Shown one piece after another: positions 9,419-63,212 of a DNA stretch of 64,000 nucleotides. The notes below the pieces were generated by a model. The model had not been told where the DNA came from and searched no databases. It saw only the letters and a list, made by a program, of their open reading frames with translations. Each line of letters opens with the position of its first letter. Positions within the stretch are counted from its first letter, which is position 1. Origin of the DNA: Candidatus Iainarchaeum sp. GTDB taxonomy: Archaea; Iainarchaeota; Iainarchaeia; Iainarchaeales; JAFCCJ01. The translations under genes were made by a program, and so were the position numbers. The stretch spans positions 3,548 through 67,547 of the forward strand of contig JBDRHK010000015.1 in assembly GCA_043816965.1 (NCBI GenBank), given 5' to 3'.

Positions 9419-10570
9419 TCACACCGTCGGTTGCGCTATTTTTAGGTAATAAACAAGTAAAATCATTATCCCTGGCATAAGCACCAGGTAGAATATTCCC
9501 ATCATTGTGGGGTTAAGCCCAAGGCCGCCAACATTCGGCAGTGGGGAGTTTGTTATTCCCCCAATAACGGCAACAAACACAGGAATAACAATTGCCATAA
9601 AGATAAATATCACCCCGAAGAAATTCATCTTCTCCCCGAAATCCCTCATCGCAATCCTGAGCTCAAAAGAAACATCCTCGGCAATCTTGTTCATTATGTC
9701 CGAGAGGTTTCCCCCTGTCTTAAGCGCACGTATTATGTGGAGCAATGCGCTTCTTAAGGATTTGGATTCTGTCCTCAGTGCAAAGTGCCTTAGGGCAACT
9801 TTAGTGTCTGTTCCCTCCTCAACCTCGGAAATGGTCCTTGAAAATTCCTCTGAAAGGACGCCATAATCAGAAACAGCGATTGCCTGCAGTGTTTTGTAAA
9901 GCCCTATTCCTGCCTTTAATTCTGTTGACATATGCCTGAGGGCAAAGGGAAGCTCAACACTGATTTCCTTACCCCTCTTCATTGCCTTACTTTTTGGGTT
10001 GAGGAAGCAGATAATGGCTGCAAATAGGAACACAAAAATTGCAATAATCGGCGAAAGCAGCAAAATTAAGTTGTTGTCAAGGAACCAGCCAAGTCCTGCA
10101 AACAAAAGCAGCACAAAGAATGCAGCAATCACTGAAACAGAGGTTGAAATCGCAAGATATTGCTGGATGCTGTATTTCATGTTTGCGCTGTAAAGGTAAT
10201 AGCCTAACTCCCCCGCCCCCGGCATTCTTCTCAGAATCTTTGAAATGAACTTTAAGGGAAGCTCAAACAAAAGATAAACCCTGCCCAAGCTCCTGATTGT
10301 GGGGGAACTGAATTCAGTTAAATCCTCAATTCCCTGCACCCTTATTTTTGACAGCTGGCTTTCGGCAATTATTCCCCGCAGTTCGCTTAATCTGCCGCCA
10401 ACTTCCTCAAATTCAACTCCCTGATCCCGATATTTTTTTTTCATCCTGGTTACAATCTTGTCCACCGCATCAAGGTCGATTGATTCCTCATCCTTTTCAA
10501 TCGCGCCGAACTTTTTGGCCGTTTTCTTTTTTTCTTCAACCTGTTTTCTCAGATCATCAAGTTCAGGCAT
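9419..10570 (-). CDS. Type II secretion system F-domain membrane protein (TadB/FlaJ-like)
   Basis: [26 protein letters not shown]...[16 protein letters not shown] plus TM helices. Paired with 8440..9414 like TadB/TadC. Confidence 0.75.
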
Positions 10571-13500: not shown

Positions 13501-13682
13501 GGGGCAGCCACTGGCTCTTGGCGGGCCAAAAATTCATCTGCAGAAGGACCATTGGCTATAGGTTGCGAAGTTGCAGGGCCAGTTTCTATAGTAGACCCCT
13601 CTACCTTAATCCCCTTTTTTTCCTTTGCCTTTCTAATCAGATCATCCAAAGGGTTAGACATATATATCCCATTAATCAACAA
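10563..13682 (-). CDS. Type IV pilus/secretion ATPase (VirB11/FlaI/KlbA family) interrupted by an intein
   Basis: Walker [33 protein letters not shown]. The conserved AMNTGHEG...CMGTVHANS box is split by 438 aa. The extein alone would be ~601 aa with a low-complexity acidic N-terminal extension. Confidence 0.9.
11004..12317 (-). mobile_element. Intein (438 aa) with LAGLIDADG homing endonuclease and HTH insert; Ala1 ... Ser-Asn / Cys+1
   Basis: Boundaries by hand: GHEG|[10 protein letters not shown]... and ...[13 protein letters not shown]|CMGTVHAN. Block [18 protein letters not shown] motifs [13 protein letters not shown] and [13 protein letters not shown]. Visibly more AT-rich than the flanking extein. 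Confidence 0.85.
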
Positions 13683-34367: not shown

Positions 34368-34679
34368 ATGGATATTACTTCAGTATGTATTTTTTTCTCA
34401 GCTATCGTGAGCATAATTTTTTTGATTAGCGGAATTCTTATTATTATTTTTAGTAAAAAATGTGCAGATTTTATTGTAAGATTTGAAATAGGATTGCCAG
34501 ATTTCCTGCCACCTAAAATTATTTATAACACTGTTTTCAATAGTGATGAAAAAAGTTATGGGTCTTTTAGAAGGATTATTTTTATTTTGCTCGGTCTTTT
34601 TTTAATTATTGGTTCCCTTTTGAACTTTTTAGTTTGGAGTTTTTTGTTTTGTGGGCTATTTCCCCCACTCACTCTGTAA
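34368..34679 (+). CDS. Hypothetical small membrane protein
   Basis: Three hydrophobic helices in an AT-rich gene. Confidence 0.4.
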   Translation: MDITSVCIFFSAIVSIIFLISGILIIIFSKKCADFIVRFEIGLPDFLPPKIIYNTVFNSDEKSYGSFRRIIFILLGLFLIIGSLLNFLVWSFLFCGLFPPLTL

Positions 34680-34762
34680 AGGTCTTTTTGCTCAACCCCC
34701 CACACCCCGAAAGGGTTGGTGGCTGCCTGAAGATGGATTTTGCACAAAAAGGGAGCTGGCGC

Positions 34763-34791
34763 TGCCCAGGGTTTCGGAAGTAATAAATACC
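34763..34791 (+). promoter_or_regulatory. Promoter copy 2: tgcccagggtttcggaagtaataaatacc
   Basis: See copy 1. The TATA-like box lies ~23 nt before ATG 34812. Confidence 0.5.
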
Positions 34792-34811
34792 GTCACGAAC
34801 TTAAATTATGC

Positions 34812-35828
34812 ATGGTTAGTAAAAGGAAATTTCTATCTGTGCCATTAGATGCTTTAAAAAGGGCGAGAGCAAAAACAAGAACTGCTGAAAAATCATCCTC
34901 TCCAAATCAACCAAAAAAGAAATTTTCGAGAAGGAAAATGCTTGGTTTATTGGGAACTGGTGCCGCAGCAGGTACTGGATTTTACCTATCCCGAAAAAAA
35001 AGATATTTTGGGGTTTTAAAGTTTTTAGGCAGGGAATGGCCCTATTCAGTAAAGCTTTTTTTTAGTTCACATGGGGAAAGAAATAATGCACAAAAAATTT
35101 TAGAGGAGTTAGATAAATCCAAAAAGAAAGGAAGAAAATATGACCTCGTTTTTTTGGAGGGCCCCATTAGTGAAGAAATGAAAAAACAATTTATGAATGG
35201 TTTTTCAAGAATTCGAAGTAACTATTTAAGTGGAAAATATCGGGATGAAAAGGGGATTCAATCTGATCTTCAAAAAGAGTATGGTAAACTGGTTCCTTTT
35301 CCTGAATTTACCGTTGAATTGTTTGCCGGATGTATAAAAAGAGGAGTATCTATTGAGCCTATCGAGGTTTATTCTCCTAACAGGTTTGTAAAATTGACTA
35401 GTCATGAATTGTATAAGGATGACTCTCTTCGAAATTATAGAAAAATTCCAAAAACTGATATTGAATCAAAAAAGAAAGCTGCAATGGAATACTTAGTTGC
35501 CAGAACAAATTATTTAAGATTTAGAAATAAAATGATTGAAATAACTTTAGAAGATAAAGTAAAAGAAAGATTTAAATCTTTAAAGGTTAAAGATGGAAGA
35601 TTAACTGATATGCTTTTTGTTGGAGCAGATCATCAGTCACTTTCAGATACCTTTGCTAAAAAAAGAAGCTGGGATTTAGATTATGAATTTGAGAGTGTTT
35701 TGCCCTCTAGATTTGAGACAGTATTTAAGCAAACCTTGTTAAGAATGGTTGAAGATCCAAAGTATGTTCCCAGTGAAAGAGATTTGGAAAAAATAATGAA
35801 CTATCTGGATATGGGACATGACTTGTAA
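34812..35828 (+). CDS. Hypothetical protein with N-terminal RR-containing signal/anchor (weak TraB/GumN/TIKI-like motif pattern)
   Basis: FSRRKMLGLLGTGAAAGTGFYL (Tat-like RR plus hydrophobic stretch). FFSSHGE...DLVFLEG...LFVGADHQ loosely recalls the TraB/TIKI GxxH..E..GxxH pattern. The track start 34740 lies inside the promoter copy. Confidence 0.35.
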   Translation: MVSKRKFLSVPLDALKRARAKTRTAEKSSSPNQPKKKFSRRKMLGLLGTGAAAGTGFYLSRKKRYFGVLKFLGREWPYSVKLFFSSHGERNNAQKILEELDKSKKKGRKYDLVFLEGPISEEMKKQFMNGFSRIRSNYLSGKYRDEKGIQSDLQKEYGKLVPFPEFTVELFAGCIKRGVSIEPIEVYSPNRFVKLTSHELYKDDSLRNYRKIPKTDIESKKKAAMEYLVARTNYLRFRNKMIEITLEDKVKERFKSLKVKDGRLTDMLFVGADHQSLSDTFAKKRSWDLDYEFESVLPSRFETVFKQTLLRMVEDPKYVPSERDLEKIMNYLDMGHDL

Positions 35829-38699: not shown

Positions 38700-39575
38700 T
38701 CATCCTTTCCTCTGTGTCTGCCGATATGCGTCCTGACTTACCTCTTTTATAAGATTCCCCAGTATTTCAATATCCCTTTTTCCTCTAATTGGCAATTTAT
38801 TAACAATTTTCTGCGCCTCTTCAAGTTTTCCTGATAATGCAAGACAGATAACAACCATGCGAACATTGCCATCTCTTCTATAGTTCCTCGCAAGATTTTC
38901 AAGAGTGGTATGCGTCTTAATTTCTTCAGTAATTAAACTCCTTACAGTTCTTGCATCCTCCGATTTCATAAGAAGTAATTTTTCATAAATCTCAAGAGCT
39001 TTTATGAATTTTTTGGCTATGCAAAAATTTATGGCGGCAAGTCTATACTTCCCCCGCCTAAGAGAAATATTCCCCAATTTTTCTAATGCTTTCCTATCAT
39101 TTAATGCTTCTGCTATGCTGGAAGCCACTGAAAAATTCCCCCGCCTTTCAGCAGATGCCATCAGATCCCCCATCAAACCGATCTGCCCCATCCTCCTAAG
39201 AATGAAAGGAATATGCTCAAAGTCCTTCATCCCTGAATTTAATAACCTCTTAAGTGTTCTTTCTGCCGCATTATTTTCGCCATTAATCATATGATTTAAA
39301 GCGGTTTTTAAAATAATTTCATCAGGGCTAAGATGAGACTTATTCAAATCTGCCAATATTTGAGAAAGGGCCTGTTTTTTAGGTTTAAAACTCCTGGCGG
39401 TTTTTCCTTTATGGCTTACAGCCCGCTTGTCAACGGATGAAGGTTTACTTTGAGTTGGTTTGAGAAGGATTAAGTTGGTAGTTTTCCTATTACCCATAAA
39501 AGAAGAACACTTCCACGAAATATAATAATTTGCTTCTTTAAAAATTCCGAAAAAACCAATAAAAACAGAATTCAA
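38700..39575 (-). CDS. Hypothetical alpha-helical repeat protein
   Basis: ORF only. TPR-like helical periodicity. The start is possibly the internal MGNRK. Confidence 0.3.
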   Translation of the reverse strand: MNSVFIGFFGIFKEANYYISWKCSSFMGNRKTTNLILLKPTQSKPSSVDKRAVSHKGKTARSFKPKKQALSQILADLNKSHLSPDEIILKTALNHMINGENNAAERTLKRLLNSGMKDFEHIPFILRRMGQIGLMGDLMASAERRGNFSVASSIAEALNDRKALEKLGNISLRRGKYRLAAINFCIAKKFIKALEIYEKLLLMKSEDARTVRSLITEEIKTHTTLENLARNYRRDGNVRMVVICLALSGKLEEAQKIVNKLPIRGKRDIEILGNLIKEVSQDAYRQTQRKG

Positions 39576-39578
39576 AAT

Positions 39579-39815
39579 TCACATTTTCCTTATTCCGTCG
39601 CAGGAAGGATATGCCGCGCAGCCCCAGAAATTTCCATATTTTCCAACTCTAGGAGCCATCGCAATCCCGCATTCAGGGCATAGTGGCGCTTTCCCGATAG
39701 TTTGGGTGTGCTTGCCGCAGACAGGCTGTTTTGCCTTGTTATAGGCCACAGCATTTCCATCGCATACAGTGCATTTCATCAAAATCAACCTTGCCGGATT
39801 ATATGTAAGACTCAT
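39579..39815 (-). CDS. Stand-alone topoisomerase-type C4 zinc-finger protein
   Basis: CTVCDG...CGKH and CPECG...FWGCAAYPSCDG (zf-C4_Topoisom signature). Confidence 0.7.
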   Translation of the reverse strand: MSLTYNPARLILMKCTVCDGNAVAYNKAKQPVCGKHTQTIGKAPLCPECGIAMAPRVGKYGNFWGCAAYPSCDGIRKM

Positions 39816-39891
39816 ATGTTTAAATTACTTTTCACGAAGGGGACTCAATTCTTTTTTAATATTGTTTTTACAACTATTAAATAGGTACAAT

Positions 39892-41019
39892 ATGAAAAGG
39901 AACATTTTTGACAATGCCAGGGGTGAAAAGCGCATTTTCAAGGACGAAAGATATCTCTATCCGGAATTTGTCCCTGAGAGGCTTTCCCACAGGGATTCTG
40001 AAATCAACAGCCTTGTATACGCATTCAATCCTGTTGCCAAGGGCGGAAAACCCCATAATGTTTTTGTCACAGGGGCAACAGGGACAGGGAAAACAGTGAG
40101 CGTGAAATATGTCCTGAACGAACTGGAGGAATACAGCGACAGGGCTAAGAAACTATACCTGAACTGTTTTGAATACAATTCCCGCCATGCAATCCTATCA
40201 AAAATCGCGAATTTTCTTGGGGCGCCGATTCCAAGAAGGGGCCTTGCAACAGACGAGATTTACTCCAAGATGCTGGAGGCAATGAAAAAGGTGGATTTCT
40301 TCCCGATAATAATCCTTGATGAAATCGACCAGATAATGAACATAACAGAATCCTCCAATCTGCTTTATGATTTATTGAGGGTAATTGAGTATCAGAGAAA
40401 CCGTTTCGGACTTGCGATAATTTCCAATGACCCGTCTTTCACCTCAAAACTTGACTCAAGGGTCAAAAGTTCCCTTGCGGAGGAGAAAGTTGTTTTCAAT
40501 CCCTATACCCCGATCCAGATTAAGGACATATTGAAAGAAAGGGCAAACTACGCTTTCCAGGGGGATGCGCTTAATGAAGAGGTAATCCCAGTTGCCGCAG
40601 CCCATGCCGCGAAAAGGGGAGGGGATGCGAGGGTTGCGATAGAGGCGCTCTGGAAAGCAGGAAGGGAAGCTGAAAGGGAAAATGCGGGGAAAGTTGAATT
40701 AAAGCATTTGAAAATGGCATTTGAGATTGTGGATTCGGTTTCTGCCCTGAAGCACGTGAAGGAGCTTGATGACAACGAAAAGGCGGTTCTCAAAATCATC
40801 GCCGAGCTTAGCCCAATCGCTTCAGGGGATTTGTATGAGAAATACTGCGCTTCAGAAAAGGAGCCCCTTTCCCAGCGCAGGGTGAGTGAATTCGTAACCA
40901 ACCTCGAAAAAAGGAATTTAGTTTCTGCAGCTCTTATAAGCATGGGCAACAAGGGAAAAACAAGGCAGATTTCCCTCACTGCGCCAAAAGATGCCGTGCT
41001 GAAAGAATTAACGGATTAA
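39892..41019 (+). CDS. orc1/cdc6: Orc1/Cdc6 replication initiator
   Basis: YLYPEFVPERLSHRDSEINSL, Walker A GATGTGKT, Walker B ILDEID, RGGDARVAIEAL and a C-terminal winged helix. ATG 39892 rather than the track start 39769. Confidence 0.9.
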   Translation: MKRNIFDNARGEKRIFKDERYLYPEFVPERLSHRDSEINSLVYAFNPVAKGGKPHNVFVTGATGTGKTVSVKYVLNELEEYSDRAKKLYLNCFEYNSRHAILSKIANFLGAPIPRRGLATDEIYSKMLEAMKKVDFFPIIILDEIDQIMNITESSNLLYDLLRVIEYQRNRFGLAIISNDPSFTSKLDSRVKSSLAEEKVVFNPYTPIQIKDILKERANYAFQGDALNEEVIPVAAAHAAKRGGDARVAIEALWKAGREAERENAGKVELKHLKMAFEIVDSVSALKHVKELDDNEKAVLKIIAELSPIASGDLYEKYCASEKEPLSQRRVSEFVTNLEKRNLVSAALISMGNKGKTRQISLTAPKDAVLKELTD

Positions 41020-41100
41020 TTCGATAACACCTTCTTTCGTACGCCGCACCGGAAACCCACTCCCGAAGGCGTATTTAAAGACCCAATACAAAATTTTATT

Positions 41101-42363
41101 ATGGGTATTAAAGGACTTGATTGTAAAACAGAATATCATTGGTTTGATGAGCCAGATACTGTAAGAGTTAGATTAGAAAAAGAGCTCTGGGAAATATTTA
41201 TAAATAAGGCAATTGCGAAGGCAGGCTCAAGAACCAGATTAGCAAATGCAACTGGACTATGCAAGGTAACTGTTTTCAATTATTTCCACAATATAAGTTT
41301 GACCGTAGGAGGGGTAAAGAAAATTCTTAATTTTTTAAACATTGATTACATGTCGGTTGAAGATAAAGTTAGGGAAATTGCTTGGACTAAAAACATTAAA
41401 TTGCCAATAAAACTTAATACGCCATCTATGGCTACTATTTTAGCAGCAGTAATTGGAGATGGAACTATTAGTGAAGTGCACGTAGAATATAAAAACAAGG
41501 ATAGTGAGCTACTGAATAAAGTCGAGAAAGAAATAAAAAAGACTTTTGGAAATGTTAAAATAGATCATAGAATTTCTGAGAAGGGCATTCCTTATATAGT
41601 TGCTAACAAAATTGTTAAAAGAGTTTTAATAAACGTTGGAGTGCCCGTTGGCAAAAAATTAAATAAAAATTCTGGAGTTCCAAAGATTATTGTGAATGGT
41701 TCAAAAAGAATGCAAAAAGCATTTATTCAGCAATTATTTGATGATGAAGGTTGGGTTGAAAACACCAATTATAAAATTGGATTATCGCAAGCCAATGAGT
41801 GTACTAATGCAATTAACAAAAAATTTTTTTCTGGAATGAAAATAAACAAGCCCTACAGCATAAATAAAATCCCCGAAGAAAATCGAAATAATGTTTTGCC
41901 TCCTCAACTCTTAACAGGCATAAGAAAAATCCTACATGAAAAATTTTTAGTCGAGTCCAATCTAAGGCTAAAAAGAATAATAAGGCGGAGAAAAGGATAT
42001 GTTACTGCATTCTGGGAACTTAATGTGGGCAAGAAAGAATCATTATTAAACTTCAAAAATAGAATTGGATTTTATTGCAAGAGAAAAAGAAAAGACTTTG
42101 ATTTAATGGTTGGATTAAGAGAAAGCATGGTTCCAAAAGACATTCTAAGTCAAATATTTTACGAAGGAGCGAATCTTTCGAAGGAAAATGGGAGGTTTAA
42201 AGTTAAGGAAATATCCAAAAAGGTAAATCTCCACCCGTCCCGTATCAGGAAGAGGCTACAGACTCTCGTAAAAAGAGGTGTTTTTTATAAGAAAAATGGC
42301 GACTATGGCCTAAATCATAGTTATTTAATTAAAACCTTTTTTAACTCAACTAATAGGGGTTTA
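41101..42363 (+). mobile_element. LAGLIDADG homing-endonuclease-like ORF (421 codons) with HTH/wHTH segments, open in frame into the downstream GTPase
   Basis: LAAVIGDGTIS and FIQQLFDDEGWVE (two LAGLIDADG motifs). HTH-like GSRTRLANATGLCKVTVFNYF. Markedly AT-rich. No stop before ATG 42364. A TATA-like tatttaaag lies ~25 nt upstream of 41101. Confidence 0.7.
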
Positions 42364-43560
42364 ATGCAAATAGGTTGTGTGGGTAAACCATCGAGTGGTA
42401 AGAGCACGTTTTTCAGTGCTGCAACACTTACTGATGTTGAAATTGATATGCGGCCATTCACAACTATCAAAGCTAATATTGGAACAGGATATATAACGAC
42501 AAAATGCGTGCATGGGGAATTTGGCAAACAGTGCCAACCCCAGAATAGTAAATGCGTAAATGGCATTAGACTCATACCAATTCAACTTTTAGATGTTGCA
42601 GGGCTAATTGAAGGTAGCTGGCAAGGTAAAGGACTTGGAAATTCTTTCATGTCGGATTTAATGCAAGCAAGTGCTTTAATCCATGTTTTGGATGTTGCCG
42701 GAATAACAGATGCGCAGGGCAATGTCTGTGGTTCAGGAACGCATGATCCGGCAGTTGACATTAAGTTTCTCGAGAGGGAGATTTCATATTGGATAAAAAG
42801 CATTTTAACAAAAAACTGGGCTAAAATAAGTAAACAATCCGGATTGAATGAGAAGGGTCCTGGAGTAGCATTGGCAAAACAGTTGAGCGGATTGGGAATA
42901 AGTGAAGATTGTGTGAATGATGTTTTGAAAGAAGGCAATTTCAGTGATAAGCCATATTCATGGAACGAAGAAGAAATTTTGAGATTTAGCGGGCTGGTTA
43001 GGGATAAAAGCAAACCTTTGTTGATTGCTGCCAATAAGATAGATCTTGCTGGGGCGCGAGAAAAATATGAAAAAATAAAGAAAGAATTTCCAAATTATAA
43101 GATTTTTCCAACTTCCGGAGCGGCAGAGCTTGCATTAAGAAAAGCAGAGAGAAATGGGATAATAAAGTATGTTCCAGGTGAAGATAAGTTCGAGATTGTA
43201 AAAGGAGATATTGATGAAAAGCAAAGGAAAGGATTAGATTTTATTCAGAAAAATATCCTTGATAAATATGGTTCGACCGGGATACAGAACGTGTTAAATA
43301 AAACAGCATTTGAACTTTTGGATTTGATAGTAGTTTATCCTGTTGAGGACCAGAATAAGTGGACAAGTGGGCAGGGAAATATTCTCCCAGATGCTTATTT
43401 GTTGAAGAGAGGAAGTACTCCAAAAGATTTATCTGGCAAAATTCACAGTGATTTTATTGATAAGTATATTGGGTCAATAAATTGCAAAACAGGCCAAAAG
43501 ATTTCTGAAAATTATAAACTGCAAAACAACGATGTTATCAAAATTATGCTCTCTCACTAA
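42364..43560 (+). CDS. YchF/OLA1-like P-loop GTPase with C-terminal TGS domain
   Basis: MQIGCVGKPSSGKSTFF (G1), DVAGL (G3), NKID (G4) and a TGS-like C-terminus. 398 aa from ATG 42364 is the normal family length. Confidence 0.85.
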   Translation: MQIGCVGKPSSGKSTFFSAATLTDVEIDMRPFTTIKANIGTGYITTKCVHGEFGKQCQPQNSKCVNGIRLIPIQLLDVAGLIEGSWQGKGLGNSFMSDLMQASALIHVLDVAGITDAQGNVCGSGTHDPAVDIKFLEREISYWIKSILTKNWAKISKQSGLNEKGPGVALAKQLSGLGISEDCVNDVLKEGNFSDKPYSWNEEEILRFSGLVRDKSKPLLIAANKIDLAGAREKYEKIKKEFPNYKIFPTSGAAELALRKAERNGIIKYVPGEDKFEIVKGDIDEKQRKGLDFIQKNILDKYGSTGIQNVLNKTAFELLDLIVVYPVEDQNKWTSGQGNILPDAYLLKRGSTPKDLSGKIHSDFIDKYIGSINCKTGQKISENYKLQNNDVIKIMLSH

Positions 43561-43707
43561 CATTATATAAGATTTTATAAGATTTAAGAATTTACCAACA
43601 ATTCCTATCTGCATTCAACCACAATTAATCAATTTATGGAAAAAGCCTTATTAGGATATACTAAAATTCAGTCAATATATTTATGGATTTCCCTCAGAAT
43701 ATATATT

Positions 43708-45081
43708 ATGGCTGATTTATGGACAGACAAATATTCCCCGAAAACTCCTGAGGAATTTGTCGGAAACAGCGAAATTCTCGCAAAAGCCCTTGATTGGGCC
43801 AATGGATGGGGCCAGGGGAAAAAACAATCCCCGCTGCTTTTATGGGGCCAGACAGGCTCAGGGAAAACATTGCTGGCATATTTGATTGCAAAGCTGCAGG
43901 ATTGGGAGATGTTTGAGTTAAATGCATCTGATTTCAGGTCCAAAGATATAATTGAAAGAATTGCAGGTGCGGCGGCGGCAAATGCGAGCTTCTCCGGAAA
44001 GAAAAGGCTTGTGCTGATTGATGAGTTGGACGGGCTGCACGGCACCAAGGACAGGGGCGGAGCCGGAGCGATTGCTTCTGTAATCCGGCAGGCGCAGAAC
44101 CCGATGATTTTAACCGCGAATGACATTTACTCCAACAGGAATATTTCCTCCCTGAGGTTTGCCTGCACAACACTGGAATTCAAGAAAATAAATTACCTTT
44201 CCATTGCAAAACGCCTGAGGGAAATTCTGGATGGGGAGAATGCAAAGTATGATCCTGAAGCAGTAAAGGAACTCGCAAAAAACTCCGGGGGGGATTTTCG
44301 TTCTGCGCTTCTGGATTTACAGACCCTTGCAATGGAGGATGAAATAGGGATGAAGGAAGTCCAGTCCATGGGGGGGAGGGAAAGAAGCGAAAAGATATTT
44401 ACAGTTATGAAATACGTCTTTAAAGGAAAGGATTTAGGGGAGATAAGGAAGGCAAGGATGGCATCTGACCTAAGCAATGATTTATTGCAAAGATGGGTTG
44501 AGGAAAACATCCCTAGGCAGTATTCCGGCGCAGATATGGCAAAGGCATTTGACAGGTTCAGCAGGTCTGATATTTTTAACGGGAGGATAAGAAGGATGCA
44601 GTACTGGGGCTTTCTCCGTTATTCATCAGAACTTATGACCTCAGGAATTGCATTTTCTAGGGAGAATGATTACAGTTCATTTGTCCCCTACCAGTTCCCA
44701 ACACTCCTCTCTAAACTTTCAAAATCCCGCCCAATAAGGGAGCTGAAAAAAGGGCTTGGGAGAAAAGTGGGGAAACAAATACACTCCTCAGCAAGGGATG
44801 TTATGGCCCATGACCTCCCTTTTATGCAGATGCTTTTCGAGCAGAAAGAACTTGCCCCAAGAATCGCCGCCCAGTTTGACCTGAATGAGAAAGAAGTTGC
44901 GTTCCTAATGAACACAAAACCAGAAACAAAGAAAGTGCAAAAAGTAATTGAGGAGGCTGCTGAATTGAGAACCCAAAACATTACTGAAAAAAGGTCAATC
45001 TTCCGCGAAAACTTCAGCTCCAAGGAAAAAATCGAAGAGAAACCGGAAGAAGAAAGCGGCAACCAAACCAAATTATTCTAA
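43708..45081 (+). CDS. rfcL: Replication factor C large subunit
   Basis: LWTDKYSPKTPEEFVGN, GQTGSGKT (Walker A), LIDELDG (Walker B), acidic/basic C-terminal tail ending NQTKLF. Confidence 0.85.
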   Translation: MADLWTDKYSPKTPEEFVGNSEILAKALDWANGWGQGKKQSPLLLWGQTGSGKTLLAYLIAKLQDWEMFELNASDFRSKDIIERIAGAAAANASFSGKKRLVLIDELDGLHGTKDRGGAGAIASVIRQAQNPMILTANDIYSNRNISSLRFACTTLEFKKINYLSIAKRLREILDGENAKYDPEAVKELAKNSGGDFRSALLDLQTLAMEDEIGMKEVQSMGGRERSEKIFTVMKYVFKGKDLGEIRKARMASDLSNDLLQRWVEENIPRQYSGADMAKAFDRFSRSDIFNGRIRRMQYWGFLRYSSELMTSGIAFSRENDYSSFVPYQFPTLLSKLSKSRPIRELKKGLGRKVGKQIHSSARDVMAHDLPFMQMLFEQKELAPRIAAQFDLNEKEVAFLMNTKPETKKVQKVIEEAAELRTQNITEKRSIFRENFSSKEKIEEKPEEESGNQTKLF

Positions 45082-52531: not shown

Positions 52532-53554
52532 ATGGCTGAGAAATCCAAATACCCGGATACCAATAAGATAGAGGTTCCCCGCAAGCTTATTGACCAGGTT
52601 ATCGGGCAGGAATCTTCAGTGGAGCTTATCCGGAAAGCCGCCGCGCAAAAAAGAAATGTATTGCTTGTAGGCCTCCCAGGAACTGGAAAATCAATGCTTG
52701 CCCAGGCAATGTCTGAAATTCTGCCGATTCAGCGTTTGGTGGATGTCCTAATTTACCCCAATTCCGAGGATGCCAATACCCCGAAAGTGAGGGTTATGAG
52801 GGCAGGAGAGGGGCAGAAAGTTCTCCAACGGGCAAGGCTGGATGCAAAGGGCCAGGAAGACAATATTAGGCTGATGGGCCTGCTTCTCCCTTTGGGCTGG
52901 TTTATAATAACCTGGCTGATGTATGCTGTTTTTGGCTTAATGCATGTGAATGTTTATGCCGCAAGCCTTATTTTGGGCGGATTCCTTATAGTCGCACTTG
53001 CATTAGGGAGCCAGATGAAAATAAGGCAGGGAACAACAATCCCAAAACTCCTAATTAACAATGCCGGAAAAAAGATTGCCCCTTTTATTGAGGCAACTGG
53101 TGCAAGGGCAGGTGCATTGCTAGGGGATGTAAGGCATGACCCGCTGCAATGTTTTTACGGCTTTAACGTGCTTTATTTACAAAAAGAAGATCAAAATGGA
53201 TCTGAATTTGTAGAAAAACCATTTTTAGAGCTTTGGGAAGAAATGTACGAAAAGTATGGCAAAGAAGTTATACGAAACAGTAAAGGATACGAAGCAATAA
53301 TGATTCCGCCTGAGGAAAAGATTTATACTTTGGGGCATAAAGATGGCAAGGTCATTTTATCAAGAATACTTTCCCTTAACAGACAGCCTTTTGAGGGAGA
53401 GCTTGTTGAATTAAAAGTTGGAGATAAGACAGTTTCATTGACGCCAGAGCATAAAGTAGATACTGCAAAAGGCGACAAAGAGGCAGGTCAGATTTCTGAA
53501 AGAGACGGTTTGATTAAACTGGTTAAGGTTGAACTTGCCAAGATTCTCAGTTAG
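52532..53554 (+). CDS. lonB: LonB protease N-terminal fragment (AAA+ Walker A + TM hairpin) fused to intein N-fragment
   Basis: VIGQESSVELIRKAAAQKRNVLLVGLPGTGKSMLA, two TM helices, GALLGDVRHDPLQ, then Cys207 onwards is a Hint N-region. Stop at 53552-53554. Confidence 0.85.
   Translation: MAEKSKYPDTNKIEVPRKLIDQVIGQESSVELIRKAAAQKRNVLLVGLPGTGKSMLAQAMSEILPIQRLVDVLIYPNSEDANTPKVRVMRAGEGQKVLQRARLDAKGQEDNIRLMGLLLPLGWFIITWLMYAVFGLMHVNVYAASLILGGFLIVALALGSQMKIRQGTTIPKLLINNAGKKIAPFIEATGARAGALLGDVRHDPLQCFYGFNVLYLQKEDQNGSEFVEKPFLELWEEMYEKYGKEVIRNSKGYEAIMIPPEEKIYTLGHKDGKVILSRILSLNRQPFEGELVELKVGDKTVSLTPEHKVDTAKGDKEAGQISERDGLIKLVKVELAKILS
53150..53551 (+). mobile_element. Intein N-terminal splicing fragment (IntN, 134 aa)
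   Basis: CFYGFNVLYLQ... (block A, Cys1) and VSLTPEHKV (block B TxxH). Terminated by a stop about 30 aa after block B. Confidence 0.75.
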
Positions 53555-53607
53555 AGATATGCCCTATCTTGTTGATAAGGGGCAGCCTCCAGAAAATTAA
53601 CGTTCAA

Positions 53608-54108
53608 TTAGGCTTCAACAAATTGCCCTGTTTCTAGATTTCTTTTGCATTTGTCCCAAGTATAAACTCTGCCATTCATTGCAATGTAAACGCCGTTCTC
53701 AAGGACATTTATAAGGCCAATTGCCACCCCGATATTAAATGAGGCATCTGAATTAGAGAATTTTTCTGGCCTCATAGCGCCTGTCAAAATTATAACTTTA
53801 TTAATATCGCTTAGATTTTTGGCAGTTTCAATCATTGTATCTGTTCCATGGGTAATTATAATTTTATCAGCATCTGCCTTTTGGCAAGCAGCATATATTT
53901 TCTACCTGTCTTTTTCTGTAATGTCTAGGCTATCTTTTTTGAGAACTGAGATCACTTCAAAATCAAAGCAGGGATTTACTTTTTGCAGTATTCTTGTTAC
54001 GGCAGGTTCAGCGATTTCAAAGGCATACCCATTTGTCGTTCTTGGATAGTCTTTATCAATTGTTCCCCCAGTTTGAATGAAAAATATCTTCATAGTATAA
54101 CCAAGCAA
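53608..54108 (-). pseudogene. Short L-asparaginase-family (N-domain) gene interrupted by one in-frame TAG
   Basis: MKIFFIQTGGTIDKDY (TGGTI) ...EKDR-TAG(53902-53904)-KIYAACQKADADKIIITHGTDTM (HGTDT)...ILTGAMRP. The two track ORFs (53902..54108 and 53608..53835) are in the same frame. Confidence 0.6.
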
Positions 54109-54319
54109 TAAAATAGTTTAAATAACATAGGATTCAAAGTAGGCCGTATTTTTAAAAAATTCACCACCTCCAATAGAGAATTTTTTCTAAGGACTCTGAT
54201 TTTCTCGGCTTAAACCTTTGCACGCCTGATTTCTACTTTTGGTGCAAAGGATTTAATGCCTCCAAAATCAGCAGAGACGTCCACGAAAAAATTCATTATT
54301 CTTGGAGGTGGTTTGATTG

Positions 54320-54451
54320 ATGAATTTTCAAAATATTCAACTTCCCACAAGGGGAGAGATAAGGATGGCTGAAGAACTAGCCAGGTCAAATCCGGAGAAC
54401 CTGACAGACAGGGAACTCTGGATTCTGAAAGAGACAGTGGGTGATTTCTAA
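54320..54451 (+). CDS. Small ORF (43 aa) with strong SD, translationally coupled (TAATG) to the LAGLIDADG gene
   Basis: GGAGGTG at 54304-54310, ATG at 54320. MNFQNIQLPTRGEIRMAEELARSNPENLTDRELWILKETVGDF*. The stop overlaps ATG 54451. Confidence 0.4.
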   Translation: MNFQNIQLPTRGEIRMAEELARSNPENLTDRELWILKETVGDF

Positions 54452-55527
54452 TGCTTTTCCCGCATCGGAAGCCTACTCCCAAAATAGTTTATAAGAGTGA
54501 AAAACAGAATTTTAACAGAAGGGCTATAATGTTGATCACTGAACAAGACATAATTAATACTTATTCACAAGAGGAACAATGCTCTTGTAGAAAATATGTT
54601 GAATACAAGGAACTAATGCGAGAGAATCCTTCTTTTGGTTATAAGCGTTGTGCAAAACTATTAGGCGTTTCTCAGGGCAGAGTAAGGTGGTGGCATACCA
54701 AAGGGGCAAAGAGAGCAGTTCCATTAGCCCTGAAGGCGGTTGAGAAACTTAAGAACGTTGGCATAATTCCATTTACTGAAGAGCACAAACACGCCAACGT
54801 AATTCTCAATATTTTAGGGACCCTTTTTGGAGATGGCGGAATTGACAGAAGGCTCAATACAGCGGCGTTCATCTCCTCAGACAAAAAGGATGTTGATTTA
54901 TGGAAGAAAGATTTGCTCGAGGCATTTCCCTTTGCAAAAAACAAAATGAATCTTGTAGAAGGGGGAGAGTGGGGGCATTCATATAACATTAGGACTTTTG
55001 ATAGGAGTATTATAAGATTCTTTGTTGCATTAGGAGCGCCAGTTGGGGATAAGGTTGCTATAAAATACAGTTTGCCAAACTACATTTTCAACGTATCCTA
55101 CGAACATAGGATTGCATTTTTGGATGGTATGTTAGCATCAGAGGTCTCAGTTCCGAGATTTAGGGACGATTCTTACCAGAACAAGAGATTCACAGATTTC
55201 AGTTTAAGTTTATCAAAAATTGATACATTACAAGACGAGCATAGGCTTTTTATGAGGAGTTTTGAAGATTTATTAAATTCTGTTGAAGTGGCCACAACAG
55301 GTAATCTGAGAAAAGATTTTCATCTAAAAAGAAAAAGAAAGGACGGTCATTTAAGTTCGCCTTACAGGATTTTCATTAGAACAATTTTTTGGAGAGTTTT
55401 ATATTTCAACAATTTATTTCCTTTAAGGTACTGTCATGGCAAGAAAAAACGTCTGCAAAAAGAAATTGAATTTGCAGTAAACTACAAGCAGAAATCTGTT
55501 AAACGGGGATTGGAGAAATGCCTATGA
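54451..55527 (+). mobile_element. Free-standing LAGLIDADG homing endonuclease gene with N-terminal HTH
   Basis: ILGTLFGDGGID and IAFLDGMLASEVS (two LAGLIDADG motifs). HTH-like YKRCAKLLGVSQGRVRWW. Alternative start ATG 54529. Confidence 0.7.
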
Positions 55528-55637
55528 AATCTGTTTTAAAAATACTATTGGTGTTGGCTATACTTGCTGGTTTTATTTTTTTAGCATCCTATGTATTTGG
55601 TTTTATTAATATGCTTGTTTTTTCTACAATTTTCTAA
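55524..55637 (+). CDS. Small hydrophobic peptide ORF (37 aa), ATGA-coupled to the endonuclease gene
   Basis: MKSVLKILLVLAILAGFIFLASYVFGFINMLVFSTIF*. Hand translation with no further support. Confidence 0.25.
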   Translation: MKSVLKILLVLAILAGFIFLASYVFGFINMLVFSTIF

Positions 55638-55726
55638 CTGCGGCAAATCGAGTTGTAGAAATGTAATTTTATTGTGATATCCTTGCAATGCAAGATATTT
55701 AATAATATTGTAATTATTATCTATTT

Positions 55727-55849
55727 ATGGAACATAAATCAAAAACAGAGAGGGTTTCTTCAGTATCTAAGCGGCCTTTTAGGGGTCATGTCTATAATGT
55801 TACAACTGAAACAGGCAACCTCTTTGTTGAGGATGTTCTGGTTCACAAT
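55727..55849 (+). mobile_element. Intein C-terminal splicing fragment (IntC, 41 aa; blocks F and G, His-Asn / Ser+1)
   Basis: [22 protein letters not shown] followed by Ser at 55850-55852. Confidence 0.75.
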
Positions 55850-57148
55850 TCGGGCGGGTTGGGAACACCCCCTCACTTGCGTGTTGAGCCAGGAATGGTC
55901 CACAGGGTTAATGGAGGGGTTCTCTTTTTGGATGAGATTTCCACTCTCTCCCCAAAATCCCAGCAGGAATTGCTTACAGCAATGCAGGAAAAGAAATTCT
56001 CAATTACGGGCCAAAGCGAGATGAGTTCAGGTGCAATGACAAGGACAGAGCCGGTTCCATGCGATTTTGTCCTTATTGCCGCAGGGAATTACAATGATTT
56101 GAGAAAAGTTCATCCTGCACTTAGGAGCAGGATAAGGGGCTATGGTTATGAGGTCTATATGAACCTTGAAATGGAAGACAATGAGGAGAACAGGAAAAAG
56201 ATTGTGCAGTTTATTGCGCAGGAAGTAACAAAGGATGCCAAAATCCCGCATTTCTCGGCAGATGCAATTGAGTCAATTATTTTCGAGGCAAGGAGAAGGG
56301 CAGGAAGGAAAAATAAACTCACCCTTAAGTTAAGGGATTTAGGCGGGCTGGTCAGGGCCGCAGGAGACATTGCAAAGGAAAAAGGCCATGGCCTGGTTGA
56401 CGCACAGGATGTTCTCGAGGCAAAGATGTCGGCAAGAACCCTGGAACAGCAGATGGTTAACAAAATTATTGATGAAAAGAAGGATTATGATGTTTACCTT
56501 TTTGAGGGAAGTGCCATTGGGAGGGTTAACGGCCTTGCGGTTTCAGCAGACGGGGATGCGGGGCTCATCCTGCCCATAGAGGCAGAAGTTGCCCCTGCCC
56601 AGAGCAGTGCTGAAGGCAAGCTAATTGCAACCGGAAAGCTTGGGGAGATAGCAAAGGAAGCTGTGCAGAATGTCTCCGCAATAATAAAGAAATTGAGCGG
56701 AAAAGACATTGCCAGCCATGACCTCCATATTCAGTTCCTCCAAACCTACTCAGGTGTTGAGGGCGACAGCGCGTCAGTTAGTGTTGCAACAGCGGTGATT
56801 TCCGCGCTTGAGGGAATTCCTGTAAAGCAGAGCCTTGCAATGACCGGTTCTTTAAGTGTCAGGGGAGAGGTTCTGCCAGTGGGAGGTGTTACGGCGAAAG
56901 TTTCAGCTGCAATCTTTGCTGGATTTAAGGAAGTAATTGTCCCATATGCAAATAAGGACGATATTATTCTTCACAAAGAACGCCTGGATAAAATAAAAGT
57001 AATTCCCGCAAAAAACCTTTCCGATGTCCTGGAAAATGCATTTGAAAAATCCCCTAAAAAGAAAAAGTTCATGACCTCCTTGAAAAAACTGCTTCACATC
57101 GAACTTTCAAATGTAGTGGAAAAAGTGATTCCCAAAACAGTGGCATGA
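55727..57148 (+). CDS. lonB: Intein C-fragment fused to LonB C-terminal part (Walker B, sensor regions, Lon protease domain)
   Basis: [41 protein letters not shown]|[31 protein letters not shown]...GDSASVS...GGVTAKV. Confidence 0.85.
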
Positions 57149-62573: not shown

Positions 62574-63212
62574 ATGAGTCAAAATAAAAATTTGAGAAAG
62601 GTCTTGTTTATAGACGGCAGTAATTTGTATCACAGTATGAAGGATAACGACTACGACCCCAACAATCTCCATTTTCTAAAGTTTTGTGAAAAAATTTCGA
62701 GGGAGGAGAAGCCTGTCGTTCGCTATTATACTGCCCCGAGAAAAAGGCAAGATGGTCTCAGAAAGTATGTTAATCAACAAAACTTCCATGAGAAAATAAA
62801 GGGACAAAACCCTAACCTATCTATCTATTTTGGGAGATTACAGAGCAATCATAGAATAAAAGACCTTTATGATAATGCGATTATGAAAAGTTTTGGGTTT
62901 GATGAAGAAACTATCCTAAAAATTCATACTTTAATGAAAGCATTGAAACTACATACACTTCATAAAGAAAAGGGGGTTGATGTAAAAATCGCTGTTGACT
63001 TAATAGATATGGCACAAAGAAATGAATACGACATTGCCATTTTGGTTTCCGGGGACGCGGATATTACCCCGTCTGTAAAACTTGCCAGAAGAGAAGGCAA
63101 AAAAATCATCAACGCCCATTTTTACAAGTGCAGTTCTTCAGAGCTTCGAATGGCCTGCAATTCACATTTTGTTTTAGCTGAAAAGACCTTTGAAGGGTGT
63201 TGGATTAGCTAA
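62574..63212 (+). CDS. NYN/LabA-like domain protein
   Basis: VLFIDGSNLYHS...KGVDVKIAVDLIDMA...DIAILVSGDADITP matches the NYN acidic residues. Confidence 0.7.
   Translation: MSQNKNLRKVLFIDGSNLYHSMKDNDYDPNNLHFLKFCEKISREEKPVVRYYTAPRKRQDGLRKYVNQQNFHEKIKGQNPNLSIYFGRLQSNHRIKDLYDNAIMKSFGFDEETILKIHTLMKALKLHTLHKEKGVDVKIAVDLIDMAQRNEYDIAILVSGDADITPSVKLARREGKKIINAHFYKCSSSELRMACNSHFVLAEKTFEGCWIS

What the first reader, a model, noticed from the sequence alone, without database searches (positions are those of the whole stretch)
41101..43560. LAGLIDADG homing-endonuclease ORF fused in frame to the N-terminus of an essential YchF/OLA1-like GTPase, without intein splice junctions
Seen: the 819-aa track ORF is composite. 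Residues 1-421 carry two LAGLIDADG motifs (LAAVIGDGTIS, FIQQLFDDEGWVE) plus HTH/wHTH-like segments and are visibly AT-richer than the surroundings. Residue 422 onward (MQIGCVGKPSSGKSTFF...) is a complete 398-aa GTPase beginning at its family-typical N-terminus. There is no stop between the two parts. There is also no Hint block (no Cys/Ser1, no TxxH, no His-Asn before a nucleophile), so it cannot splice as a canonical intein. The only TATA-like box (tatttaaag, ~41072-41080) precedes the endonuclease ATG, and a weak SD-like aggggt precedes ATG 42364. Inference: a free-standing HEG has inserted immediately upstream of the GTPase start codon and captured its promoter. The result would be either a fusion protein or a GTPase made by internal initiation.
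Basis: partly seen in the sequence, partly recalled or inferred. Interest (0 to 1): 0.6.

Follow-up and report, generated by a model that had tools for sequence, protein, structure and literature searches.

The report
Endonuclease gene frameshift-fused to neighbouring GTPase
A DNA-cutting "homing endonuclease"-type gene normally sits as a separate gene just in front of a housekeeping GTPase gene in a few tiny (DPANN) archaea; here one extra T removes its stop codon and creates an apparent 819-aa fusion, which is probably incidental, although the gene family and its habit of sitting directly in front of housekeeping genes seem to be undescribed.

Summary
The 819-aa ORF (41101-43560) is real and composite. 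Residues 1-408 form an XRE-HTH + two-domain LAGLIDADG nuclease + winged-helix protein with no Hint/intein blocks. Residues 422-819 are a complete YchF-related (YGR210-type) GTPase.

It is not an ancient or designed fusion:
- In the closest relative (Iainarchaeota/Diapherotrites MAG, L001) the two are separate genes.
- The window differs by one extra T (42318), three codons before the ancestral TAA (42326-28). This shifts the frame through a 35-nt spacer into the GTPase ATG.
- That TAA lies inside a conserved ATTTAATTAAAACC block. The block is also present in front of the GTPase in a relative lacking the endonuclease gene (L029), so it is the GTPase's own promoter. An SD-like GGGGT follows it. 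The GTPase is therefore most likely still made on its own.
- None of the 120 best GTPase homologs is fused.

The LAGLIDADG gene belongs to a large, apparently undescribed family (962 cluster representatives). Both catalytic acids are kept in about 99% of members. Every sampled member lies directly 5' of a housekeeping gene (GTPase, RtcA, Pus10) or is fused to one (cytidylyltransferase). It is patchy, AT-rich and occasionally decayed. The best reading is a free-standing homing-endonuclease cassette; a domesticated regulator is the main rival.

The parts
41063..41081 (+). BRE/TATA-like promoter of the LAGLIDADG gene (CCGAAGGCGTATTTAAAGA). ATG 41101 lies 20 nt after the TATA, so the transcript is likely leaderless.
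   Evidence: Conserved with L001 (CCGAAGCCATTTATAAAGA), although the upstream neighbours differ. Spacing is like other promoters in the window.
41101..42328 (+). LAGLIDADG endonuclease-type gene proper (ancestrally 408 aa, ending at TAA 42326-42328, which is now out of frame).
   Evidence: 65% identical to the separate 403-aa gene of L001. Only 4 close homologs, all free-standing. Deleting one base in 42311-42326 restores a 408-aa product with a family-typical tail.
41134..41385 (+). N-terminal invariant YHWF.EP motif plus helical XRE-like HTH domain (aa 12-95).
   Evidence: Invariant columns in A1. Helices 27-78 in the model. HTH_3 hit on the equivalent part of P0066.
41413..42090 (+). Two-domain LAGLIDADG nuclease core (aa 105-330).
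   Evidence: Pfam LAGLIDADG_3. Foldseek matches to TliVMA intein endonuclease, PI-PfuI, I-DmoI and PI-SceI.
41431..41469 (+). LAGLIDADG motif 1 (ATILAAVIGDGTI) with metal-binding Asp120.
   Evidence: D120 is invariant in A1. Acidic in 146 of 147 family domains.
41716..41760 (+). LAGLIDADG motif 2 (KAFIQQLFDDEGWVE) with metal-binding Glu216.
   Evidence: E216 is invariant in A1. E/D in 146 of 147 family domains.
42133..42324 (+). C-terminal winged-helix (Lrp/AsnC/TrmB-like) DNA-binding domain (aa 345-408).
   Evidence: Sub-threshold Pfam HTH_24/AsnC/TrmB hits. PDB profile hits to Lrp-type regulators. Helices 348-391 plus a beta hairpin in the model.
42318..42318 (+). Window-specific extra T (CA[T]AG) that shifts the frame and removes the stop.
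   Evidence: Absent from both L001 and L029 in alignments A2 and A4. Removing it gives ...DYGLNQVI-TAA.
42325..42363 (+). Read-through linker (aa 409-421, LIKTFFNSTNRGL): the translated former stop codon plus the intergenic spacer.
   Evidence: No counterpart in any family member. This frame has no stop between 42301 and 42364, while the other two frames do.
42323..42336 (+). ATTTAATTAAAACC: TATA-like core promoter of the GTPase gene, containing the ancestral TAA of the upstream gene.
   Evidence: Identical TTAATTAAAAC in L001. The full block is present at the same distance from the ATG in endonuclease-free L029. Same spacing as the TATA of divergent-type loci and of other genes in the window.
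42337..42342 (+). T6 run: a possible archaeal terminator for the upstream transcript.
   Evidence: Read directly from the sequence. T6 in L001, interrupted (TTCTTT) in L029. Its function is inferred.
42356..42360 (+). GGGGT Shine-Dalgarno-like motif 3 nt (motif end) to 8 nt (motif start) before ATG 42364.
   Evidence: Similar GGGT/GGTG motifs precede other ATGs in the window. L029 has GGTGTGAT and L021 has GGAG at the same place.
42364..43560 (+). YchF-related (YGR210-type) GTPase gene, 398 aa. P-loop GKPSSGKST is encoded at 42382-42408.
   Evidence: NF007171 E 2.6e-156. 67% identical to the L001 GTPase.
41020..43635 (.). Low-GC island comprising the LAGLIDADG gene and the GTPase gene, inverted relative to the conserved neighbours Cdc6 and RFC-L.
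   Evidence: GC3 0.276 and 0.314 against about 0.46. Synteny comparison with L009-L014 and L029.

Best explanation
The locus is a two-gene cassette. A free-standing LAGLIDADG homing-endonuclease-type gene (XRE-HTH + two-domain nuclease core with both catalytic acids + winged helix) has its own promoter. Immediately downstream is the housekeeping YchF-related GTPase gene with its own TATA-like promoter and SD-like motif.

In this sequence one extra T (42318), three codons before the endonuclease's TAA, shifts the frame. The ORF then reads through the 35-nt spacer into the GTPase ATG, giving an 819-aa ORF.

Expected products (inferred):
- Mainly the normal 398-aa GTPase, from its own promoter and start.
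- An endonuclease whose last three residues are changed.
- A fusion protein on any transcript that reads through the T6 run.

The endonuclease gene belongs to a large DPANN-archaeal family that resides directly 5' of housekeeping genes. It most likely persists as a selfish homing element that cuts endonuclease-free alleles in or near the conserved 5' coding region (here the P-loop codons) and is copied in together with flanking DNA.

Shown: gene architecture, separate genes in relatives, the 1-nt cause of the fusion, the conserved GTPase promoter block, conserved catalytic residues, strict linkage to the GTPase 5' end, and presence/absence polymorphism.
Inferred: nuclease activity, the target site, homing, and which products are made.
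For: Fusion is secondary:
- L001 has separate genes, and the alignment shows +1 nt in the window 9 nt before a conserved TTAATTAAAAC that holds the TAA.
- Both L001 and the empty-site L029 lack that T.
- Removing one base restores a 408-aa protein with the family-typical end Y.LN..Phi-stop.
- None of the 120 best GTPase homologs, and none of the close N-part homologs, is fused.

GTPase is independently expressed:
- ATTTAATTAAAACC lies at the same distance from the ATG in L029, which has no endonuclease gene.
- The spacing and the GGGGT motif resemble other genes in the window and the promoters of divergent-type loci.

Nuclease-type protein:
- Pfam LAGLIDADG_3 hit and fold matches.
- D/E at both motif ends in 146 of 147 family domains, whereas domesticated WhiA lacks them (PMC3384342).

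Selfish-element features:
- Always at the 5' flank of the YGR210 GTPase gene in about 12 independent loci.
- Absent from 8 other Iainarchaeal GTPase loci.
- A possible 11-codon footprint in L029.
- AT-rich outlier in GC-richer hosts.
- Frameshifted copy in L006-8; overrunning or overlapping 3' ends in L017 and L019.
- Distant members sit 5' of RtcA and Pus10, or are fused to a cytidylyltransferase.
- Both genes in the window are compositional outliers, and the cassette is inverted between conserved neighbours.
Against: - No cleavage or homing has been shown.
- LAGLIDADG and GTPase divergences are congruent by clade, and synonymous sites between the window and L001 are near saturation. There is therefore no evidence of recent independent movement. 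The gene evolves almost as slowly as the GTPase, which also fits a host function.
- Two orientations exist (tandem and divergent), which simple homing does not produce.
- The L029 footprint is statistically weak (E about 0.09).
- No family member was found on viral, phage or plasmid records, so no vector is known.
- Whether T42318 is real cannot be checked without reads.
Confidence: 0.6

Rival explanations
1. Sequence or assembly artefact. The organism really has two separate genes, as in L001. The extra T at 42318 (or an extra T in the TTT run at 42324-42326) is a consensus error, so no fusion ORF exists in vivo. This differs from the best explanation only on whether the fusion is real.
For: - A single base anywhere in 42311-42326 makes the difference.
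- The fusion is unique among all homologs.
- The exact protein is not on record anywhere.
- Both relatives lack the base.
Against: - The rest of the window has long intact ORFs (up to 1039 aa) and no obvious run of frameshifts.
- The alignment places the inserted T outside a homopolymer.
- Other family members also show variable 3' ends: an out-of-frame overlap in L017 and a true fusion in P0085 seen in two assemblies.
Confidence: 0.3
2. Domesticated LAGLIDADG-derived DNA-binding protein (WhiA-like). It would be a transcription factor or partner dedicated to the adjacent housekeeping gene and inherited with it, not a mobile endonuclease.
For: - The architecture (LAGLIDADG core plus HTH domains) resembles WhiA, and full-length WhiA is the third-best fold hit.
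- Tandem-operonic or divergent placement next to one gene is typical of regulators.
- Divergence is congruent with the GTPase, with strong purifying selection.
Against: - Both metal-binding acids are kept in about 99% of the family, unlike WhiA.
- Distribution is patchy: absent from 8 of 10 Iainarchaeal loci examined.
- Composition stays AT-rich in GC-richer hosts.
- One lineage carries a decayed copy.
- Relatives sit next to unrelated genes.
Confidence: 0.2
3. A selected, functional bifunctional fusion protein (endonuclease/DNA-binding module plus GTPase).
For: - The ORF is uninterrupted.
- An analogous in-frame fusion of this module to a cytidylyltransferase exists in two assemblies, without an internal Met at the junction.
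Against: - The fusion arises from a frameshift 3 codons before a conserved stop.
- The linker is translated promoter and spacer sequence.
- The GTPase promoter block and the SD-like motif are retained.
- No other GTPase or family member has it.
Confidence: 0.05
4. A degenerate or N-terminal intein of the GTPase.
For: The nuclease core is most similar to intein-borne endonucleases: NCBIfam hits to intein-containing VMA, GyrA and RtcB, and TliVMA and PI-PfuI as top fold matches.
Against: - No Hint/Intein_splicing hit at E <= 1, while the same search finds a real intein at 10563-13682.
- No Cys/Ser/Thr at the insert start, no TxxH, and no HN plus nucleophile at the junction.
- The N-terminal domain is helical, not a Hint fold.
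- Homologs are separate genes with their own stop.
Confidence: 0.01

Closest known systems
Free-standing homing endonuclease genes of phages (T4 seg/mob genes; 'intronless homing')
   Same: A stand-alone nuclease gene lodged between or next to conserved genes. It is patchy among relatives, AT-rich, and expected to spread by double-strand-break repair with co-conversion of flanking host DNA. (The comparison is from general knowledge. Linkage and patchiness were shown here.)
   Different: - LAGLIDADG rather than GIY-YIG/HNH.
- Chromosomal, in DPANN archaea.
- Always directly 5' of the target gene, often with a 2-36 nt gap or an overlap.
- No vector was found.
Intein-encoded archaeal LAGLIDADG endonucleases (PI-PfuI, TliVMA/PhoVMA inteins, PI-SceI)
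   Same: Best structural and sequence matches for the nuclease core. Two motifs ending in D and E.
   Different: No Hint splicing domain, and not inserted within a coding sequence. Flanked by an N-terminal XRE-type HTH and a C-terminal winged helix instead.
WhiA/DUF199 (domesticated LAGLIDADG + HTH transcription factor)
   Same: LAGLIDADG scaffold tethered to a C-terminal HTH. Full-length fold hit 3hyi, E 4e-8.
   Different: WhiA lacks the catalytic acids and basic residues and is universally conserved in Gram-positive bacteria (PMC3384342). This family keeps both acids and is sporadic.
'Fractured genes': split inteins with a free-standing endonuclease gene between the halves (Dassa et al. 2009, PMC2677866)
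   Same: A free-standing endonuclease gene embedded in a housekeeping locus. The same window has such an arrangement in its Lon gene, with a distantly related LAGLIDADG ORF.
   Different: At the GTPase locus no intein halves exist. The endonuclease gene lies outside the host coding sequence.
Yeast HO endonuclease
   Same: A free-standing LAGLIDADG enzyme related to intein endonucleases (from general knowledge).
   Different: HO retains Hint-derived domains and is a host-domesticated, single-locus enzyme. Here there is no Hint remnant.

Membership tests
LAGLIDADG homing endonuclease (monomeric, two-domain) | [quoted passage not shown] | tested here: met
   Pfam LAGLIDADG_3, 31 bits against a gathering score of 22.5. 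Foldseek matches to 7qsu, 1dq3, 2vs7 and 1vde, E 9e-9 to 1e-5.
LAGLIDADG homing endonuclease (monomeric, two-domain) | Metal-binding acidic residue at the C-terminal end of each LAGLIDADG helix | tested here: met
   D120 and E216 are invariant in A1. Acidic in 146/147 and 146/147 family domains.
LAGLIDADG homing endonuclease (monomeric, two-domain) | Site-specific cleavage of an element-free allele | not testable with these tools
   Needs purified protein and synthetic empty-site substrates (L029-type and L009-type alleles).
LAGLIDADG homing endonuclease (monomeric, two-domain) | Mobility: presence/absence at one conserved genomic site, with phylogeny incongruent with the host | tested here: inconclusive
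   Presence/absence at the GTPase 5' flank is clear, and a weak footprint is seen in L029. However, LAGLIDADG and GTPase clades are congruent and the divergence is old.
Intein (Hint domain) | N-terminal Cys/Ser/Thr nucleophile, block B TxxH, and C-terminal His-Asn followed by Cys/Ser/Thr | tested here: not met
   The insert starts MGIKG and ends ...NRGL|MQIG. No Intein_splicing/Hint hit at E <= 1. As a positive control, the intein at 10563-13682 is detected at E 2.4e-23.
WhiA-like domesticated LAGLIDADG regulator | Loss of catalytic acids; uniform vertical conservation in a clade | tested here: not met
   The acids are retained. The gene is absent from 8 of 10 Iainarchaeal GTPase loci examined.
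YchF-related / YGR210-type Obg-like GTPase (C-terminal half) | Full-length match to the family model, with P-loop, YGR210-like G4 domain and TGS domain | tested here: met
   NF007171, 520 bits against a cutoff of 387, model positions 3-394 of 397. PF01926, PF08438 and PF02824 hits.
Natural LAGLIDADG-GTPase fusion protein family | The fusion is recurrent in orthologs | tested here: not met
   The best 120 GTPase homologs are all 387-420 aa. Close N-part homologs are 395-407 aa. The exact product is not on record.

The most novel reading that the evidence does not exclude
The N-terminal module represents a large, undescribed family (about 1000 clusters at 50% identity) of active free-standing LAGLIDADG homing endonucleases in DPANN and other archaea, with a distinctive lifestyle. 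They lodge between the promoter region and the start codon of housekeeping genes (YchF-like GTPase, RtcA, Pus10, cytidylyltransferase). They would recognise the conserved nucleotide-binding-motif codons in the first roughly 20 codons of the host gene, be co-transcribed with it, and spread as endonuclease-plus-host-gene cassettes, replacing resident alleles of essential genes across lineages. Occasional stop-codon loss then produces in-frame fusions such as this one and P0085.
Probability: 0.35. Interest if true: 0.65.

Novelty: new variant of a known kind. Interest (0 to 1): 0.42.

Why it matters
The apparent fusion of a homing endonuclease to an essential GTPase is explained by a single-base change, so it should not be read as a new protein architecture or a non-canonical intein.

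What is worth keeping is the gene family behind it. A free-standing, catalytically intact-looking LAGLIDADG enzyme is tied to the 5' boundary of housekeeping genes in genome-reduced archaea. If it is a homing system, three things follow:
- It would show how selfish nucleases persist in very compact genomes without introns or inteins.
- It could drive lateral replacement of essential genes.
- It would offer a set of new, naturally diverse monomeric LAGLIDADG scaffolds with predictable targets (motif-coding DNA) for genome engineering.

Tried and rejected
- Intein hypothesis: rejected. No Hint hits, the N-domain is helical, and homologs are separate genes.
- Ancient N-terminal domain of the GTPase: rejected.
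- Exact-protein look-up: nothing on record.
- Younger age of the cassette, tested with synonymous sites: only a weak excess for the LAGLIDADG gene (35/82 against 25 expected). All genes are near saturation, so the test is uninformative.
- Identity ranks of housekeeping genes against the GTPase across Iainarchaeal loci: no clear incongruence.
- HEG-versus-GTPase distance comparison: the clades are congruent, so independent mobility is not supported.
- Boundary repeats around the low-GC cassette: only chance-level matches.
- L029 upstream gene as a decayed relative: rejected. It is an unrelated double Lrp/AsnC protein (hhalign probability 3%).
- Viral contigs, phage and plasmid records: no family member.
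- PHROGs and PADLOC: only weak wHTH-level hits, so this is not a known defence or phage family.
- tRNAs in the window: none.
- Literature searches for this family: nothing specific.
Full report
**Observation.**
The ORF 41101..43560 (+) of 819 aa exists exactly as described.
- The C-terminal 398 aa match the YchF-related GTPase model NF007171 almost end to end (model 3-394/397, E 2.6e-156, 520 bits against a cutoff of 387). They carry MMR_HSR1, YGR210-like_G4 and TGS domains.
- The N-terminal 421 aa hit LAGLIDADG_3 above the gathering score, plus weak winged-helix models near residues 360-400. Their NCBIfam hits are to the endonuclease parts of intein-containing proteins.
- An AlphaFold model (pLDDT 73; core 80-90) shows a helical N-terminal domain, a duplicated alpha-beta-beta core and a C-terminal winged helix.
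- Foldseek matches the model to archaeal intein endonucleases (TliVMA 7qsu E 9e-9, PI-PfuI), I-DmoI, PI-SceI and full-length WhiA.
- No Hint or intein-splicing model hits at E <= 1, whereas the same library detects a genuine intein elsewhere in the window.
- Neighbours are Orc1/Cdc6 (39769-41019) and the RFC large subunit (43636-45081). The closest relatives are Iainarchaeota/Diapherotrites MAGs.

**The fusion is secondary and caused by one nucleotide.**
- The N-part has only four close homologs among 5.8 billion proteins, and all are free-standing proteins of about 400 aa.
- In the closest one (L001, 65% identity) the LAGLIDADG gene ends at a TAA, and the GTPase gene (67% identical) starts 36 nt later.
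- Alignment of the junctions shows an 11-nt block, TTAATTAAAAC, identical in both and holding the TAA in L001. The window has one extra nucleotide 9 nt upstream (CA[T]AG), so the TAA (42326-28) is out of frame.
- Deleting any single base in 42311-42326 restores a 408-aa protein. Removing T42318 gives ...DYGLNQVI-stop, matching the family's conserved ending Y-x-L-N-x-x-hydrophobic-stop.
- A third sequence, L029 (second-closest GTPase, 65%), also lacks this T, so the insertion is specific to the window.
- The shifted frame happens to be stop-free for 13 codons and to be the GTPase frame. Residues 409-421 are therefore translated stop codon plus spacer.
- None of the 120 best GTPase homologs (387-420 aa), and none of the close family members, is fused. 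The exact 819-aa product is not on record.
- Without reads I cannot tell whether the T is a real mutation or a consensus error.

**Expression logic.**
- The LAGLIDADG gene has its own BRE/TATA (41063-41081), conserved with L001 although the upstream neighbours differ.
ATTTAATTAAAACC (42323-42336) ends 27 nt before ATG 42364. It is conserved in L001 and, decisively, in L029, where no LAGLIDADG gene exists and the block lies in plain intergenic DNA in front of the GTPase.
- The TATA-to-ATG spacing equals that of the conserved promoter in loci where the two genes are divergent and of other genes in this window. Several of those genes also carry a GGGT-type motif 5-9 nt before the ATG, as here (GGGGT, 42356-60).
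- I therefore infer that the GTPase is still produced as a normal 398-aa protein. A T6 run (42337-42) may terminate many upstream transcripts.

**What the upstream gene is.**
- A profile search shows the four homologs are the tip of a large family: 962 cluster representatives at E <= 1e-3. Most are 380-450 aa and match over the full length.
- The acidic residue ending each LAGLIDADG motif (D120, E216 here) is acidic in 146 of 147 aligned family domains for each motif.
- Domesticated WhiA proteins have lost these residues and cannot cut DNA (PMC3384342). This argues that nuclease activity is under selection.

**Genomic behaviour.**
- Every member of the GTPase-linked clade whose contig reaches far enough lies at the 5' flank of a YGR210-type GTPase gene. 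It is tandem in the window, L001, L017, L021/22, L023/24 and L025/26, with gaps of 2-36 nt or an 18-codon out-of-frame overlap in L017. It is divergent in L002/3, L004, L006-8 and L016.
- The divergent arrangement is confined to one clade.
- Eight other Iainarchaeal GTPase loci (L009-L015, L029; 44-65% identity) lack the gene.
- L029 keeps, just upstream of the TATA block, 11 codons reading ENGKYYLNQDI-stop, against KNGDYGLNQVI-stop in the window. This is a possible deletion footprint, but it is statistically weak.
- One lineage carries a frameshifted copy in three assemblies (L006-8).
- In GC-richer hosts the gene is a marked AT-rich outlier (GC3 0.21-0.28 against 0.40-0.47).
- In the window the GTPase is an outlier too (GC3 0.314). 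The two-gene island is also inverted relative to the conserved neighbours. Other loci have RFC-L(-) <-> GTPase(+) ... Cdc6(-), while the window has Cdc6(+) cassette(+) RFC-L(+). This suggests the cassette was acquired or rearranged as a unit.
- More distant family members show the same placement next to other housekeeping genes. One overlaps the start of RtcA by 20 nt (L019). One lies 1 nt before Pus10 (L030). One is fused in frame to a cytidylyltransferase in two assemblies (P0085).

**Interpretation.**
- The most economical reading is a free-standing LAGLIDADG homing-endonuclease cassette that lives directly 5' of housekeeping genes. Its target is presumably in the adjacent conserved 5' coding DNA (P-loop codons 42382-42408).
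- This last step is inference. It rests only on the pattern that the GTPase, RtcA and the cytidylyltransferase all encode their conserved nucleotide-binding motifs within the first roughly 20 codons, and that the closest empty alleles have a different P-loop (GKTNTGK against GKPSSGK).
- Points against recent homing: the LAGLIDADG and GTPase clades are congruent; synonymous sites between the window and L001 are near saturation; the gene evolves about as slowly as the GTPase; and no viral or plasmid carrier was found.
- A WhiA-like domesticated regulator therefore remains a serious rival (about 0.2), although the retained catalytic acids and the patchy distribution argue against it.
- A selected bifunctional fusion (about 0.05) and an intein (about 0.01) are unlikely.

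**Novelty and verdict.**
- Literature searches found no description of this family or of LAGLIDADG genes linked to YchF-like GTPases.
- The fusion itself is ordinary: a one-base frameshift, or possibly an artefact.
- The underlying family and its placement at the promoter/start boundary of housekeeping genes look like a new variant of the known free-standing homing-endonuclease theme.
- Interest is moderate.

Noticed in passing
window 52532-57148: The Lon protease (LonB) gene is broken at the classic Lon intein site.
- ORF 52532-53554 ends with an intein N-half (...HDPLQ|CFYG..., with TPEH) and a stop.
- ORF 55727-57148 begins with an intein C-half (...VLVHN|SGGLGTP...) followed by the rest of Lon (Lon_C, LonB lid).
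- Between them lie a low-GC 358-aa LAGLIDADG-related ORF (54451-55527; family HMM E 6.7e-11) and minus-strand asparaginase fragments with an in-frame stop.
This looks like a 'fractured gene' with a split intein and a free-standing endonuclease gene (compare PMC2677866), or a decayed intein.
   Followed up: partly
window 10563-13682 (-): A 1039-aa FlaI/T2SSE-type ATPase containing a canonical intein (Intein_splicing E 2.4e-23) with a LAGLIDADG_3 domain and an HTH_3 domain. This is the third LAGLIDADG element in the 64-kb window.
   Followed up: partly
window 41020-43635: The LAGLIDADG-GTPase cassette is a low-GC island and is inverted relative to its conserved neighbours Cdc6 and RFC-L, compared with seven other Iainarchaeal loci. 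No boundary repeats were found.
   Followed up: partly
L027 401-2161 (also L028): P0085: the same LAGLIDADG module is fused in frame to a cytidylyltransferase-like enzyme, with no Met at the junction. It is seen in two independent assemblies.
   Followed up: partly
L029 4930-4968: The endonuclease-free locus retains 11 codons (ENGKYYLNQDI-stop) resembling the LAGLIDADG protein's C-terminal tail, immediately before the GTPase TATA block. This is a possible deletion footprint. An unrelated double Lrp/AsnC gene occupies the upstream position.
   Followed up: partly
L006/L007/L008 6001-7226: The LAGLIDADG gene is split by a frameshift into 307-aa and 72-aa ORFs in three assemblies. This is a likely decaying copy.
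   Followed up: no
L017 5140-5251: The LAGLIDADG ORF overruns the GTPase start by 18 codons in another frame, overlapping the P-loop codons.
   Followed up: no
window 34368-35828: Two adjacent ORFs (103 and 362 aa) have very low GC3 (about 0.24) and no Pfam hit. They form another compositional island of unknown nature.
   Followed up: no
window 62574-63212 and 38700-39575: Further low-GC ORFs: a NYN-domain protein (E 3e-20) and a TPR-like protein.
   Followed up: no
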